A stretch of 64,000 nt of DNA from Escherichia coli (lineage in GTDB: Bacteria > Pseudomonadota > Gammaproteobacteria > Enterobacterales > Enterobacteriaceae): NCBI RefSeq assembly GCF_013315695.1, contig NZ_CP054353.1; one strand, given 5' to 3'. The first letter of the stretch is position 1; each line of letters starts with the position of its first letter. The position numbers are program-made. Shown here piece after piece: positions 33,801-39,800 of this stretch.

Positions 33801-36800
33801 ACTCGTACATTATTTGCCCCCCATGTTGCCGGGCAGGCGAACTTTACGTTCAACCAGCGTCATTACCAGCATGATAACCGCGTTAATCAACACATACGCA
33901 AGCGTAATGGCGGTAAACGACTCCCAGGCATGAGCTGAGTAATCGAGCAATTTACCCGCCTGCGCCGCCATATCTACCAGACCGATAGTCGAGGCGATGG
34001 CGGAGTTTTTCACCAGGTTCATCATCTCGGAGGTCATCGGCGGGACGATAACGCGATAAGCATTAGGCAGCAGTACATAGCGGTAAGCCTGCGGTAGCGT
34101 CAGACCCATTGCCAGCGCGGCATTCTTTTGCCCACGCGGCAACGACTGAATCGCGGCGCGTACCTGTTCGCAAACACGGGCGGCGGTAAACAGCCCCAGG
34201 CAGAGCATGGATGAAAGGAAAAACTGAATATTGGGATCCAGCTCGGCCTTAAACCACATGCCGATTTTCTCTGGCAGCAGCTCCGGGATCACCAGATACC
34301 AGGTAAAGAATTGCACAATCAACGGCACGTTGCGGAACAGTTCGACATACAACGTACCCAGACCGGAGAGAAAACGGTTTGGAACGGTACGTAAAATGCC
34401 GAAAAATGAACCGACGAGGAAAGCGATAATCCAGGCGCAGATCGACAAAGCGATCGTCACCTGAAAACCACTCCAGATCCAACCAAGATAGGTGGTGTTG
34501 CCGAACGGGGCTTGTTGTAAAAAAATACCCCAGTTCCAGTCTATAGACATAAATCTACTCCAGAAAAAAGAGGGTAGCAGCGTTAACTGCTACCCTCGAA
34601 GATTGTTACCCAGCGTATTGCGGTTTTCAGGCCCGATGGGGAACGACCATCAGGCGTATAGTCTGTCCGTGCTACGTAACAATCGAGAGGGCTGGAATTT
34701 CCGCCCCTGGTTCTTGTAATTAGTTCAGTGCCTTGTCATTCGGTTCTTTGAACAGTGCTTTCATTTCGTCCGACAGTTCGAAATTCATGTTCAGGTTTTT
34801 CGGCGGAATTGGGTTTTTGAACCATTTATCAAACCATTTTTCCGCTTCACCGGAGGTCTGCACCTGAGCGATAGTGTCATCCATCAGCTTTTTGAACTGC
34901 GGATCGTCTTTACGCAACATGCAACCGTAGGCTTCCTGAGACTGCGGCTTGCCGACGATTTCCCAGTTGTCTGGTTTCTTCGCTTTTGCACGTTCACCAG
35001 CCAGCAGAGCATCATCCATCATAAAGGCAACGGCACGACCGCTTTCCAGGGTACGGAAAGAGTCACCGTGATCTTTGGCGCTGATGATGCGCATGTTCAT
35101 TTTTTGCTCTTCATTCAGTTTGTTGAGCAAAACTTCAGAGGTGGTGCCGGAAGTGACTACGACGGCTTTGTCTTTCAGATCGGCAAAATCTTTAATATCG
35201 CCGCCTTTTTTTGTCAGCAGGCGCGTACCGACCACGAAAATAGTGTCGGAGAAAGCCGCCTGTTTTTGGCGTTCGACGTTGTTGGTGGTAGAACCACATT
35301 CAAAATCGAAAGTGCCGTTTTGCAGCAGCGGAATACGGTTTTGTGAGGTGATCGGAATCAATTTCACCTGCAAGTCCGGTTTGTTGAGTTTCTTTTTCAC
35401 TGCTTCAACAATGGCGTTGGAGTAATCCTGCGAGTAACCCACCACTTTTTGCTGATTGTCGTAATAAGAGAAAGGTACTGAAGATTCACGGTGACCGACG
35501 ACAATCACACCGTTTTTGGCGATTTTGTCCAGCGTACTGCCTGCTGCCGGGGCGGCGTCATCTGCCTGTGTCAGTCCTGCGGAAAGCGCCAGGGCCAGGA
35601 TTGCTGTGGCAGGTTTACGTAATTGCATATCCAACTCCTTTATCTTCTGCGTTAAGAACGCATGGATACCCGTTGTGAGTGTTTGTGTTGTTATCATCTG
35701 CAACTTTATTGTGCAGTGTTGTGTTTGTTAGGTAACATTTAGTTTGGCTAAATGTAAAGATATTGATGTTTTATTGTTTGTTTTTGCGAGATGCGCCGCA
35801 CCATTCCGAAGCAAAATTCTTAAACTGCACCTTTTTGGTGCTACCGCTGATTTGTGGTGGTGCAACCCGGTTGCGTCGCGGCTGATTTCATTGCTTACAC
35901 AGTAAATAAAGCAACTTACATGCCAAAAAATACTTAGGGGTGAATTAATTACGATTGTAATTTTAGGCTGAAAAAGTCATATTTCGGACAGTGTTAACTT
36001 TTCGGTGTGGGACGTTTGCCGGGATGATAACTACACACGGGAAAATGCTTTTTACTAGTCTTTTCAAGGAAGAATCACCTTATGTCTGCATCTTCGGTTA
36101 AGCCGTTAAATGTTCAATTACCCGCAATAACCCTGATCCTTTTTGCGCTCTGTGTTGGGATATTTTGTTACCTCGCACAATGGATGAGTTACGAAGAAGT
36201 CGATCAATCCGCACTCATCCATCTCGGCGCTAACGTTGCTTCTCTCACGTTGTCGGATGAATCCTGGCGCTTATTGAGCAGTGTTTTTCTGCACAGTAGT
36301 TTTTCCCATTTGCTGATGAATATGTTTGCACTCCTGGTGGTGGGGGCAGTGGCGGAGCGGATACTGGGGAAATGGCGACTCCTGATTGTTTGGCTATTCT
36401 CTGGCGTCTTTGGTGGGCTGATCAGCGCCTGTTATGCGTTACGCGAAAGTGAGCAGATAGTCATCAGCGTTGGGGCATCCGGAGCAATTATGGGAATAGC
36501 TGGCGCTGCGATAGCAACACAGCTTGCTTCAGGTGCGGGCACACACCATAAAAACCAGCGGCGAGTATTTCCTCTGTTGGGTATGGTGGCGCTGACACTG
36601 TTGTACGGTGCCCGGCAAACAGGAATAGATAACGCTTGCCACATTGGCGGCCTGATTGCGGGTGGCGCGTTGGGTTGGCTGAGCGCGCGTTTAGTTGGGC
36701 AAAACCGATTCGTTACGGAAGGCGGGATTATTGTTGCGGTCACTCTTCTTCTGACCGGGGCTATCTGGCTTGTGCAGCAGCAGATTGATGAATCAGTTTT

Positions 36801-39800
36801 ACAAGTCAGGCAAAGCCTGCGTGAAGCGTTTTATCCGCAGGAGATTGAACAAGAGCGACGACAAAAAAAGCAGCAGTTAGTGGAGGAGCGCAACGCCCTC
36901 ACGGAAACATTATCCGCTCCGGTAAGTCGTGAGCAGGCCAGTGGTGATTTACTCGCTGAGATTGCCGATATCCATGATATGGCGATCAATCGGGATGGTA
37001 ATACGTTATATGCCGCAATTGAAAACACGAACAGTATTGTTGTTTTCGACCTCGGACAAAAGAAAATCCTGCATACCTTTACAGCGCCCATAGCGAAAGA
37101 AAAGTCACTCAAACATTGTGGTGGCTGTAAAGATCAGGGCGTCAGATCGCTGGCGTTAAGCCCGGATGAAACGTTGCTTTATGCAACTTCATTTGAAGCG
37201 AATGCGTTATCGGTCATTAACGTGGCGACGGGGGAGATTATTCAGTCGATTACCACCGGTGCACATCCTGACAGTCTTATCCTCTCGCGTGATGGCACAA
37301 AAGCCTGGGTGATGAATCGCACCAGTAATAGTGTGTCAGCCATTGATCTGGTGACTTATCAGCATGTAGCGGATATCCCGCTGGAGAAATACGACGGGAC
37401 GGGGACGAGCGGTAAACCAGGCGCCTGGGTTATGGCACTTTCCCCGGATGAAAAAACATTGTTGATACCCGGTATGGTCAGAGGCGACATTGTACGCATC
37501 AATACCATCACGCATCAGAAAGAAGACTTTCCCACAGGTGATGCGCGTGGTGTCGTTTCTGCGATGGGATTCCGACCAAAAAATGGCGAGATTATTTTTG
37601 CCGATAGCCAGGGGATTTCACGTATAAGCGTAGGGGATCAACAAGCCAGCATTATGACGCAATGGTGTAGCAGGAGCGTTTATTCCGTTGAGGGTATTAG
37701 CCCGGACGGTCAGTATTTAGCGTTGGTGTCATATGGCCTGCAAGGTTATGTCATCCTGCTCAATATTAATGCCGGGCAGATTATTGGCGTTTATCCTGCC
37801 AGCTACGTTAATCATCTTCGTTTTTCAGCGGATGGTAGAAAGATATTTGTTATGGCGAAGAACGGGTTAATCCAAATGGACAGGACGCGCTCGCTTGATC
37901 CACAGGCAATTATTCGGCATCCCCAATATGGTGATGTGGCTTGTATCCCTGAACCGTAAGAAAAAAGGGGCATGATAATCACGCCCCACCGCTTAATGAG
38001 AAAGTATGTTTTGTTGATACCGGATGCGGTGTTAACGGTTTATCTGGCCTGCAAAATTGATGCAATTATGCAGGCCAGCGCATCATTCACATCAACGTTT
38101 ACGTCGTTGACGCAGACTCATCAACACGGCGGCAAAACCAAACAATGCCGTCAGTACCCACAGCGGCCAGTTGCCGGTACGTGCGTACGGTGTGAGTCCG
38201 GTAGTCGGCGTCACGTTAGTGGTTAACACCTCGCGGGTGAACTGCGGGATCATCGCCTGAATCTCACCCTGCGGACCAATCACCGCCGTAATGCCGTTGT
38301 TGGTGCTGCGCAACAGTGGGCGCGCCAGCTCCAACGCACGCATTCGCGCCATCTGGAAGTGCTGCCATGGACCAATAGACTTACCAAACCACGCATCGTT
38401 GGAGATAGTCAGCAGATAGTCGGTATCCGGGCGGAAGTTATCGCGCACTTGCTCGCCGAGAATGATCTCGTAGCAAATAGCCGCAGTAAGCTCAATACCA
38501 TTTACCGACAGCGGCGGCTGGATATATGGCCCACGTCTGAACGACGACATCGGCAGATCAAAGAACGGTGCTAACGGACGCAGAATCGACTCCAGCGGGA
38601 CAAACTCGCCAAACGGCACCAGATGGTTTTTGTTATAGCGATCGGCTGATTCGTAGCTGTACGGCGCACCTTTACCCAGCGTGATGATGGTGTTGTAGGT
38701 ATCGTAGCGGTTCTGCTTATTGAGACGTGCGTCAACAATCCCGGTTACCAGCGAGCTACCTTTATCGCGCAACTCACCGTCCAGTGCTTTGAGGAACGGT
38801 TGCTGATTAATTTCCAGATCGGTTATCGCCGACTCCGGCCAGATAATCAACGATGATTTGCCCATCAGCGGTGCCGTTGCGTTGTAGTAAATCTTCAGCG
38901 TATTAAGTAGCTGGTCTCCGTCCCATTTCAGCGATTGCGGAATATCGCCCTGAACCATCGAAACCTGAATAGTTTTTTCCGGTTGCGGGGTAAACCACTG
39001 GATGTAACGCAGCGGGAAGGGAAGGGCAAACAGCATGACGGCCACCGCCAGCGGACGCCAGTTGCGTTTGACCAACGCCAGTGCCAGCAGGCCGCTAACC
39101 ATCATCAGCAGGAAGTTAATGGCTTCCACGCCCATTATCGGTGCCAGCCCTTTTAACGGGCCATCAATCTGGCTATAGCCGAACTGTAACCACGGGAAGC
39201 CAGTCAGCACCCAACCGCGCAGAAACTCGGTCACTTGCCAGAGAGCAGGGGCGGCAATCGCCACGCGCAGCCAGGTGGTTTTCGGCCACAGACGCGACAG
39301 CACGCCAGCAAACAGTCCGGTATACAGCGACAAATACGCCGCCAGCAGTACCACCAGGAAGATGTTAACCGGGCCAGGCATTCCGCCAAAGGTCGCGATG
39401 CTGACATAGACCCAGTTAATACCGCTGCCAAAGAGGCCAAATCCCCAGCAAAAGCCAATAGCGGCAGACTGGAGTGGACGGCGGTTAAAGGTCAACGCCT
39501 GAAGCCCCATCAGCGAAATAATCGCCGCAGGCCAGACGTCGTAAGGAGAGAAGGCCAGCGTTCCGCAGGCACCGAATAATAACGCCAGCAGCAGGCGAAT
39601 GCGCTGGCGTTCAATTAATGAGGCAAAAGCCATGTAGTTATCTATCCAGTTTCGGTTTTATTCATCCAGCTTCGGCTGGGGTGAGTCATCCGGGATTTTG
39701 ACATGAACCTGAATAATACGCCGACTGTCGGCCATCGCCACTTTGAACTGGTAACCGTCGATGTCGATGGTTTCGCCACGCGCCGGAAGATGCCCAAATG

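What the first reader, a model, noticed from the sequence alone, without database searches (positions are those of the whole stretch)
36082..37959. Rhomboid intramembrane protease fused to a periplasmic 7-bladed beta-propeller at the gltI-lnt locus
A single 625-aa ORF combines a complete rhomboid catalytic core (TM2 HxxxN = HLLMN, TM4 GxSG = GASGAIMG, TM6 His = CHIGGLIAGG) with an extra seventh TM helix, a charged Q/E/R-rich linker (QQQIDESVLQVRQSLREAFYPQEIEQERRQKKQQLVEERNALTE) and about seven ~40-residue YVTN-like repeats. The 6+1 TM topology would place the propeller in the periplasm, so a substrate- or ligand-binding domain appears hard-wired to an intramembrane protease. This differs from GlpG, the characterised E. 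coli rhomboid. From memory of K-12 coordinates, K-12 has an IS5 copy between gltI and lnt and only about 0.4 kb of unique sequence there, so the gene seems missing from the reference strain. The gene also shows several ATA Ile codons (e.g. cgg-ata-ctg, cag-ata-gtc, gga-ata-gct, gcg-ata-gca). I do not know of a described function for this architecture in enterobacteria.
Basis: partly seen in the sequence, partly recalled or inferred. Interest (0 to 1): 0.85.

Follow-up and report, generated by a model that had tools for sequence, protein, structure and literature searches.

The report
E. coli copy of rhomboid protease Rhom7
The 625-residue gene between gltI and lnt is the E. coli version of Rhom7, a membrane-embedded protease with a periplasmic propeller domain already shown to be active in Shigella sonnei in 2020, so it is a real but known gene whose propeller still has no assigned role.

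Summary
Window 36082..37959(+) is one intact 625-aa ORF with a rhomboid core (Pfam PF01694, E=2.9e-28), a seventh TM helix, a charged helical linker and a seven-bladed YVTN-type beta-propeller.

It is not uncharacterised. It is 93% identical, over its full length and at the same gltI–lnt locus, to Shigella sonnei Rhom7 (SSON_0610, Q3Z4D6). Its Ser133 and His187 sit at the positions that Liu et al. (EMBO J 2020, PMC7232013) mutated to abolish activity. That paper reports Rhom7 as an active rhomboid that, when over-expressed, cleaves orphan HybA and FdnH. TM7 and the C-terminal domain were dispensable for cleaving a model substrate.

The gene covers at least 80% of the query in 3231 of 5426 complete E. 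coli genomes and is annotated 'rhomboid family intramembrane serine protease'. K-12 lacks it, but IS5 did not replace it: IS5-free strains have the same gene-less 396-bp spacer.

Conserved synteny in Klebsiella aerogenes indicates the gene is ancestral at this locus and was lost repeatedly. It evolves under relaxed purifying selection (dN/dS about 0.2), has poor codon usage, and is frameshifted in some lineages.

The function of the propeller is the only open point. Interest is low.

The parts
36082..37959 (+). rhom7 coding sequence (625 codons plus stop), orthologue of Shigella sonnei Rhom7/SSON_0610
   Evidence: ORF list. The RefSeq CDS has the same limits. 93% identity over the full length to S. 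sonnei P0009 and to the published Rhom7_Ss sequence.
36066..36072 (+). Shine-Dalgarno-like AAGGAAG, 9 nt upstream of the ATG
   Evidence: Read directly from the sequence. Function is inferred.
36082..36696 (+). Rhomboid catalytic core, residues 1-205 (TM1-TM6) with WR (62-63), HxxxN (76-80), GxSG (131-134) and HxxGxxxG (187-194)
   Evidence: Pfam PF01694 at E=2.9e-28. Motif positions. These residues are invariant across 16 homologues down to 25% identity. AF2 helices.
36478..36480 (+). Codon of catalytic Ser133
   Evidence: Position. S133A abolishes activity in S. sonnei Rhom7 (PMC7232013).
36640..36642 (+). Codon of catalytic His187
   Evidence: Position. H187A abolishes activity in S. sonnei Rhom7 (PMC7232013).
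36706..36780 (+). Seventh TM helix, residues 209-233, carrying the C-terminal part across to the periplasm
   Evidence: Hydropathy peak at 213-231. AF2 helix 209-233. Basic residues cluster in the alternate loops AERILGKWR, HHKNQRR and ARLVGQNR (the positive-inside reading is inference).
36781..36945 (+). Charged helical linker, residues 234-288, ending in the conserved motif PVSxExAxG (V281, A286 and G288 invariant)
   Evidence: AF2 helices 237-250 and 253-272. Conservation.
36946..37956 (+). Seven-bladed YVTN-type beta-propeller plus C-terminal tail, residues 289-625. Cys529 is nearly invariant and Cys621 invariant, suggesting a disulfide (inferred)
   Evidence: TIGR02276 above its cut-off. 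Pfam propeller hits. AF2 strand pattern. Foldseek top PDB hit 1l0q at E=9.7e-18. Cys conservation.
37967..37987 (-). GC-rich hairpin followed by a T-run on the minus strand. It is probably the terminator of the convergent lnt operon and lies 8 nt after the rhom7 stop codon
   Evidence: Terminator scan. Function is inferred.
35928..38097 (.). Segment present only in rhom7-carrying genomes. In rhom7-less E. coli it is replaced by about 100 bp of unrelated REP-like sequence. High identity ends at 35873, weak similarity runs on to about 35927, and homology resumes at 38098 inside lnt
   Evidence: BLASTN and local alignment against L003 and L002.

Best explanation
The gene is the E. coli orthologue of Shigella sonnei Rhom7. 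The protein is an inner-membrane rhomboid (S54) serine protease with a Ser133/His187 dyad buried in a six-helix core. A seventh helix takes the chain back across the membrane. A roughly 50-residue charged helical linker and a seven-bladed YVTN propeller therefore lie in the periplasm.

By transfer from the 93%-identical Shigella protein, it cuts single-pass transmembrane segments that contain a helix-breaking proline and a small P1 residue. The identified clients are the Tat-exported, tail-anchored iron-sulfur subunits HybA (hydrogenase-2) and FdnH (formate dehydrogenase-N). They are cut only when they are 'orphans' lacking their membrane partners, and cleavage licenses their further degradation.

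The propeller is not needed for catalysis on a model substrate. I infer that it acts as a periplasmic docking or selectivity module for the folded periplasmic domains of clients, or for a partner protease.

Shown here: gene structure, domains, fold, orthology, locus and population distribution. Shown by others, in Shigella: protease activity, catalytic residues, substrates under over-expression, and dispensability of TM7 and the C-terminal domain. Inferred: periplasmic location of the propeller, its role, and the physiological substrates at native expression.

The confidence of 0.85 refers to the identification as an active Rhom7 orthologue. The orphan-subunit quality-control role at native expression I would put near 0.5.
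For: - Orthology: 583/625 identities with S. sonnei P0009, whose sequence matches Rhom7_Ss printed in Fig EV1 of PMC7232013 (625 aa).
- Locus: the S. sonnei gene also lies between gltI and lnt.
- Catalytic residues: Ser133 and His187 are at the published positions.
- Rhomboid family: Pfam Rhomboid at E=2.9e-28. W62, R63, H76, N80, G131, S133, G134, H187, G190 and G194 are invariant in homologues down to 25% identity.
- Structure: seven TM helices plus a seven-bladed propeller in the AF2 model. YVTN repeat above its cut-off. 1l0q is the top PDB fold hit.
- Published function: active protease; S133A and H187A are dead; ΔTM7 and ΔCTD are still active on the model substrate; orphan HybA and FdnH are cleaved by plasmid-encoded Rhom7 in a proline-dependent way (PMC7232013).
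- Selection: dN/dS is 0.17-0.25 between E. coli alleles over the whole gene, and below 0.5 in each of the three regions, which indicates a functional gene.
- Expression: low codon adaptation and no sigma-70 consensus upstream fit the paper's report that native Rhom7 levels are too low for detectable cleavage.
Against: - No activity or substrate has been tested for this E. coli allele, which differs from the Shigella protein at 42 positions.
- In Shigella, cleavage of HybA and FdnH needed plasmid over-expression, and a ΔglpGΔrhom7 strain showed no phenotype. The physiological substrates are therefore unproven.
- The periplasmic location of the propeller rests on topology prediction, charge distribution and conserved cysteines, not on experiment.
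- Nothing found here assigns a ligand or partner to the propeller. Its relatives outside the family match only at the level of generic YVTN repeats. Distant homologues share no conserved gene neighbourhood.
Confidence: 0.85

Rival explanations
1. The protease's real job differs from the published one. The periplasmic propeller recognises a specific periplasmic ligand or protein domain and thereby gates or targets cleavage of a client that has not yet been identified. On this reading, HybA and FdnH cleavage is an over-expression side activity shared with GlpG.
For: Native Rhom7 gave no detectable HybA or FdnH cleavage. The propeller and the PVSxExAxG linker motif are conserved in homologues down to 25% identity, including Burkholderiales, and the propeller is under purifying selection (dN/dS 0.14-0.24 in five of six allele pairs, 0.35 in the closest pair). 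The nearest rhomboid cores belong to the YqgP/GluP type, which also carries an extracytoplasmic C-terminal domain (TPR) and has a regulated, specific client.
Against: No candidate ligand or client emerged. The C-terminal-domain search found only generic YVTN repeats, and no gene neighbour is conserved outside Enterobacteriaceae. The C-terminal domain was dispensable for the one substrate tested.
Confidence: 0.35
2. The gene is a dispensable remnant on its way to being lost from E. coli and has little present-day function.
For: About 40% of complete E. coli genomes lack a place covering at least 80% of the query. Frameshifted alleles are common; for example, a 1-nt deletion at codon 195 gives a product cluster of 640 members. 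Codon usage is poor. dN/dS is several-fold higher than in the flanking genes (0.17-0.25 against 0-0.08). The Shigella deletion mutants showed no phenotype.
Against: dN/dS is well below 1 in every region. The full-length ORF with every catalytic residue is retained across Escherichia, Shigella, E. fergusonii, Klebsiella aerogenes and beyond. The Shigella protein is enzymatically active.
Confidence: 0.1
3. One reading: a previously undescribed rhomboid-propeller fusion that was replaced by IS5 in K-12.
For: The architecture is real, and K-12 has IS5 at the locus.
Against: Rhom7 has been published (PMC7232013) and is listed in a 2025 review with UniProt Q3Z4D6. Public databases already name this exact protein 'rhomboid family intramembrane serine protease' and 'YVTN family beta-propeller protein'. 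IS5-free strains lack the gene too.
Confidence: 0.03

Closest known systems
Shigella sonnei Rhom7 (SSON_0610, UniProt Q3Z4D6; Liu et al., EMBO J 2020, PMC7232013)
   Same: 625 aa, 93% identity, the same gltI–lnt locus, the same Ser133/His187, and the same seven TM helices plus C-terminal domain.
   Different: 42 amino-acid substitutions, and this allele has not been tested. The paper does not describe the C-terminal domain as a beta-propeller ('propeller' occurs 0 times).
Bacillus subtilis YqgP/GluP-type rhomboids
   Same: A 6+1 TM rhomboid with an extracytoplasmic C-terminal repeat domain. The nearest rhomboid cores outside the family are of this type, at 36-42% identity over the core. YqgP also has a role in membrane-protein quality control.
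   Different: The C-terminal domain is TPR rather than a YVTN propeller. YqgP also has a cytosolic N-terminal regulatory domain, which is absent here (the N-terminal tail is only 14 residues). The YqgP client is MgtE, a multipass protein.
Providencia stuartii AarA
   Same: An enterobacterial seven-TM rhomboid, reported as 30% identical to Rhom7. Rhom7 cleaves AarA's substrate, the TatA TMD.
   Different: AarA is 281 aa and ends shortly after TM7, with no periplasmic domain.
E. coli GlpG
   Same: The same S54 catalytic core and motifs. In Shigella its substrates overlap with those of Rhom7 (HybA, HybO).
   Different: GlpG has six TM helices, a cytoplasmic N-terminal domain and no C-terminal domain. 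Sequence similarity is weak: NCBIfam GlpG models score 36-41 bits against cut-offs of 250-335, and PDB GlpG chains match at E of about 2e-3.
YVTN / YncE-type seven-bladed propellers (e.g. PDB 1l0q, E. coli YncE)
   Same: A seven-bladed fold with canonical 40-residue YVTN repeats in blades 2-3.
   Different: Those are soluble or surface-layer proteins not fused to a protease. Identity is only about 20%, and no shared functional site was identified.

Membership tests
Rhomboid intramembrane serine proteases (MEROPS S54 / Pfam PF01694) | Significant match to the family profile | tested here: met
   PF01694 at E=2.9e-28 over residues 60-201, model positions 3-140 of 143.
Rhomboid intramembrane serine proteases (MEROPS S54 / Pfam PF01694) | Catalytic Ser in a GxSG motif on TM4 and catalytic His on TM6 (HxxGxxxG), with TM2 HxxxN and the L1 WR motif | tested here: met
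   G131-A-S133-G134, H187-I-G-G190-L-I-A-G194, H76-L-L-M-N80 and W62-R63. All are invariant in 16 homologues.
Rhomboid intramembrane serine proteases (MEROPS S54 / Pfam PF01694) | Proteolytic activity that depends on the Ser/His dyad | not testable with these tools
   Shown for the 93%-identical S. sonnei protein (S133A and H187A are inactive; PMC7232013). Not tested for this allele.
Rhom7 orthologous group (S. sonnei SSON_0610) | Full-length high identity to the published sequence | tested here: met
   583/625 identical to P0009. P0009 matches the Rhom7_Ss sequence in Fig EV1, apart from characters lost when the PDF was machine-read.
Rhom7 orthologous group (S. sonnei SSON_0610) | Same chromosomal position | tested here: met
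   The order gltL-K-J-I / rhom7 / lnt-corC-ybeY is found in the window, E. coli AF3 and an S. sonnei assembly.
Rhom7 orthologous group (S. sonnei SSON_0610) | Seven TM helices plus a C-terminal domain | tested here: met
   AF2 model and hydropathy. The paper predicts seven TMDs with Phobius.
YVTN-type seven-bladed beta-propeller | YVTN 40-residue repeat profile above its curated cut-off | tested here: met
   TIGR02276 at 58.4 bits against a cut-off of 27.85. Only two repeats are recognised by sequence.
YVTN-type seven-bladed beta-propeller | Seven four-stranded blades closing into a ring | tested here: met
   The AF2 strand pattern across 289-600 shows seven blades, with pLDDT mostly 80-95. 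Foldseek matches to 1l0q, G-beta and YncE-family models have probability 1.00. This is a prediction, not a solved structure.
GlpG equivalog (NCBIfam TIGR04239 / NF008155) | Score above the curated equivalog cut-off | tested here: not met
   41.3 bits against 250, and 35.7 against 335. The protein is not a GlpG.
Rhombosortase (TIGR03902) | Score above the curated cut-off | tested here: not met
   44.7 bits against a cut-off of 84.

The most novel reading that the evidence does not exclude
The periplasmic YVTN propeller, together with the invariant PVSxExAxG linker motif, is a client-selection or gating module. It would read the state of folded periplasmic domains, for example whether Tat-exported iron-sulfur subunits are assembled or orphaned. 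It would also give Rhom7 a physiological substrate set distinct from that of GlpG. No paper in the searched library assigns the domain a fold or a role.
Probability: 0.35. Interest if true: 0.45.

Novelty: already known. Interest (0 to 1): 0.15.

Why it matters
As a discovery it matters little. The gene is annotated in thousands of genomes, and its Shigella orthologue has been characterised biochemically.

Three points may still be useful:
- The characterised protein's 'C-terminal domain' is a seven-bladed YVTN propeller tethered by a long charged helix. This gives a concrete structural hypothesis for how a rhomboid might pick clients that have folded periplasmic domains.
- The gene is a presence/absence polymorphism within E. 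coli. It is absent from K-12 and from about 40% of complete genomes, and frameshifted in others. K-12-based rhomboid work therefore misses it, and natural knock-outs are available for comparison.
- Absence in K-12 is an older deletion and not a consequence of IS5.

Tried and rejected
(1) I searched the C-terminal domain alone (residues 274-625) against 1.84 billion representatives. Outside its own family it retrieved only giant multi-repeat proteins matching query positions about 80-160, which is generic YVTN repeats. This gave no functional clue.

(2) I looked at gene neighbourhoods of distant homologues (P0042, P0044, P0045, P0046). No neighbour is shared, and one instance lies in a T6SS cluster. 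I rejected neighbourhood as a source of function.

(3) I searched the literature for rhomboid plus beta-propeller or YVTN, and for the accession numbers. Nothing in the held library describes the Rhom7 C-terminal domain's fold or function.

(4) A promoter scan upstream of the gene found no sigma-70 consensus on the + strand. This is uninformative beyond being compatible with low expression.

(5) Rfam found only sroC in the gltI-gltJ spacer and nothing linked to rhom7.

(6) I looked for a remnant of the rhom7 3' end in rhom7-less strains. A 21-nt similarity scored 22, within the range of shuffled controls (mean 20.5, maximum 31), so it is not significant.

(7) I considered horizontal acquisition as the explanation for the odd codon usage. 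Conserved synteny in Klebsiella aerogenes and another enterobacterium argues against it, as does a dS similar to that of gltI.

(8) I rejected the idea of two genes or a sequencing artefact. The same 625-aa ORF is recorded on 879 contigs, and the split versions are explained by a specific 1-nt deletion.

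
Full report
**Observation.** Window 36082..37959(+) is a single ATG-initiated ORF of 625 codons. 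It lies between the divergently transcribed gltI (34720..35628, minus strand) and the convergent lnt (38092..39633, minus strand). RefSeq annotates exactly these limits as one CDS in a genome that matches the window at 100% (E. coli AF3, WP_001276750.1). An AAGGAAG Shine-Dalgarno-like sequence lies 9 nt upstream of the ATG.

**Domains and fold.**
- Pfam places residues 60-201 in the Rhomboid family (PF01694, E=2.9e-28) and residues about 297-609 in several beta-propeller families (THOC3-type, YNCE, Lactonase).
- The NCBIfam YVTN repeat model TIGR02276 scores 58.4 bits against a cut-off of 27.85. The GlpG and rhombosortase equivalog models fall far below their cut-offs.
- An AlphaFold2 model was built on 16 full-length homologues (mean pLDDT 79.7, propeller mostly 80-95). 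It has seven membrane helices (15-34, 74-95, 97-122, 132-149, 152-178, 184-203, 209-233) and two charged helices (237-250, 253-272). A propeller of seven four-stranded blades spans 289-600.
- Foldseek's best PDB match is the archaeal YVTN propeller 1l0q (E=9.7e-18). It is followed by G-beta subunits, hydrazine synthase beta and Lp49. In AFDB the best matches are full-length rhomboid-propeller proteins of Cedecea and Paraburkholderia, followed by YncE-family propellers.
- Basic residues cluster in alternate loops (AERILGKWR, HHKNQRR, ARLVGQNR), and the L1 loop is acidic. By the positive-inside rule this gives an N-in topology in which TM7 delivers the C-terminal part to the periplasm.
- The nearly invariant Cys529 and invariant Cys621 fit an oxidising compartment. 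The periplasmic location remains an inference.

**Identity.** A full-text search for bacterial rhomboids led to Liu et al., EMBO J 2020 (PMC7232013).
- That paper names S. sonnei SSON_0610 'Rhom7' because Phobius predicts seven TMDs. It identifies Ser133 and His187 as the catalytic residues, the same positions as here.
- Its Figure EV1 prints the whole Rhom7_Ss sequence, 625 aa ending …RHPQYGNVACIPEP.
- That sequence matches the S. sonnei protein P0009 retrieved in the homology search. P0009 is 583/625 (93%) identical to the window protein with one 1-residue gap.
- P0009 is encoded between gltI and lnt in an S. sonnei assembly.
- A 2025 review lists Rhom7 as UniProt Q3Z4D6 with substrates FdnH, HybA and HybO.
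- The exact window protein is already in public collections on 879 contigs. It is named 'rhomboid family intramembrane serine protease' and also 'YVTN family beta-propeller protein'.

The gene is therefore the E. coli orthologue of a published, biochemically characterised protease.

**What is known about how it works (from PMC7232013).**
- Rhom7 cleaves a reporter carrying the Providencia TatA transmembrane segment. S133A and H187A abolish this cleavage.
- Removing the C-terminal domain, or TM7 plus the C-terminal domain, does not abolish it.
- In a screen of 44 single-pass TMDs, Rhom7 cut those of HybO, HybA and FdnH.
- Full-length HybA and FdnH were cut only when their membrane partners (HybB, FdnI) were absent. 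Cleavage also required the substrate's helix-breaking proline.
- For Rhom7, cleavage was seen only with plasmid expression, because native levels were too low.
- A ΔglpGΔrhom7 strain had no growth, Biolog, oxidative-stress or T3SS phenotype.
[quoted passage not shown] They do not describe the fold of that domain; 'propeller' does not occur in the text.

**Population and evolution.**
- Megablast of 35629-38091 against 5426 complete E. coli genomes finds at least 80% coverage in 3231 of them. The remainder match only the first about 245 bp, next to gltI.
- In K-12 MG1655 the gltI–lnt spacer holds IS5. Strain F5505-C1 has no IS5 and no rhom7, only a 396-bp spacer. The K-12 spacer is that same sequence interrupted by IS5. 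IS5 therefore did not replace the gene.
- High-identity homology with rhom7-less strains ends at window 35873. It fades by about 35927 and resumes at 38098.
- Klebsiella aerogenes (P0038, 49% identity) and another enterobacterium (P0037, 53%) carry a homologue in the same gltI–lnt position. The gene is therefore ancestral at this locus, and its absence is a loss.
- Between E. coli alleles, rhom7 is 93.9-96.1% identical at the nucleotide level, while its flanks are 96.4-99.3% identical.
- The excess divergence is non-synonymous. dN/dS is 0.17-0.25 for rhom7 as a whole (0.09-0.45 in the separate core, linker and propeller regions), against 0-0.08 for gltI, gltJ, lnt and corC. dS values are comparable. 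This indicates purifying but relaxed selection.
- Codon usage is clearly poorer than in the neighbouring genes. No sigma-70 consensus was found upstream. Both fit low expression.
- Some lineages carry a 1-nt deletion at codon 195 that splits the gene into 199-aa and 440-aa ORFs. The cluster of the 440-aa product has 640 members.

**The propeller.** This is the only open part.
- Across homologues down to 25% identity, including proteins from Cedecea and Burkholderiales, three features are retained: the rhomboid motifs, a PVSxExAxG motif just before blade 1, and the propeller.
- A search with the C-terminal domain alone found only generic YVTN-repeat matches outside the family.
- Distant homologues share no conserved neighbour.
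- The nearest rhomboid cores outside the family are of the YqgP/GluP type, which carry an extracytoplasmic TPR domain after TM7. This suggests the two are analogous '6+1 TM plus outward-facing repeat domain' designs.
- I infer a docking or selectivity role for the propeller, because all known Rhom7/GlpG clients have folded periplasmic domains. No result here tests that inference.

**Verdict.** Novelty is 'already known', and interest is low. The residual question is the role of the periplasmic propeller and the native substrates.

Noticed in passing
L011:3447-5323 (equivalent to window 36082-37959; lesion at gene nt 583, window about 36664): A natural frameshift allele of rhom7. A 1-nt deletion at codon 195, just after His187, gives separate 199-aa rhomboid and 440-aa propeller ORFs. 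The 440-aa product cluster (P0029) has 640 members, and other internally truncated clusters exist (P0025, P0026).
   Followed up: partly
window about 38014-38085: A REP-like palindromic segment of about 70 bp lies between rhom7 and lnt. It is present in the window and in hits H1/H2 but absent from other rhom7-carrying strains (L009-L011), whose spacer is 77 bp rather than 132 bp. lnt is 513 aa here against 512 aa there.
   Followed up: partly
window 34562-34724 (-): The sroC sRNA (Rfam RF00369, 174.8 bits) lies in the gltI-gltJ spacer, as expected for this operon.
   Followed up: no
L015:6001-7944 and flanks: A distant rhomboid-propeller homologue (P0045, 28% identity) sits inside a type VI secretion cluster (PAAR, VasX_N, DUF4123, TssM/IcmF, TssA). 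This is a single instance, and other distant homologues have unrelated neighbours.
   Followed up: no
window 36082-37959: rhom7 codon usage differs sharply from all seven neighbouring genes. ATA is 21% of Ile, AGA+AGG is 20% of Arg, CTG is 29% of Leu, and GC3 is 0.495 against 0.55-0.66. This is despite conserved synteny across Enterobacteriaceae.
   Followed up: yes
AFDB entries A0A376KY81, A0A484VRC0, A0A376LJY3: E. coli fragments of this gene are annotated 'Outer membrane protein' in UniProt/AFDB. This is probably a misannotation of split or partial rhom7 ORFs.
   Followed up: no
window 32411-35628 against other E. coli: The glt genes of this window are only 96-97.6% identical to those of K-12 and several other strains, while corC and ybeY are about 99% identical. 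Only 6 of 5425 matching records match the rhom7 region at 99% or more. This strain's allele block at the locus is therefore uncommon.
   Followed up: no
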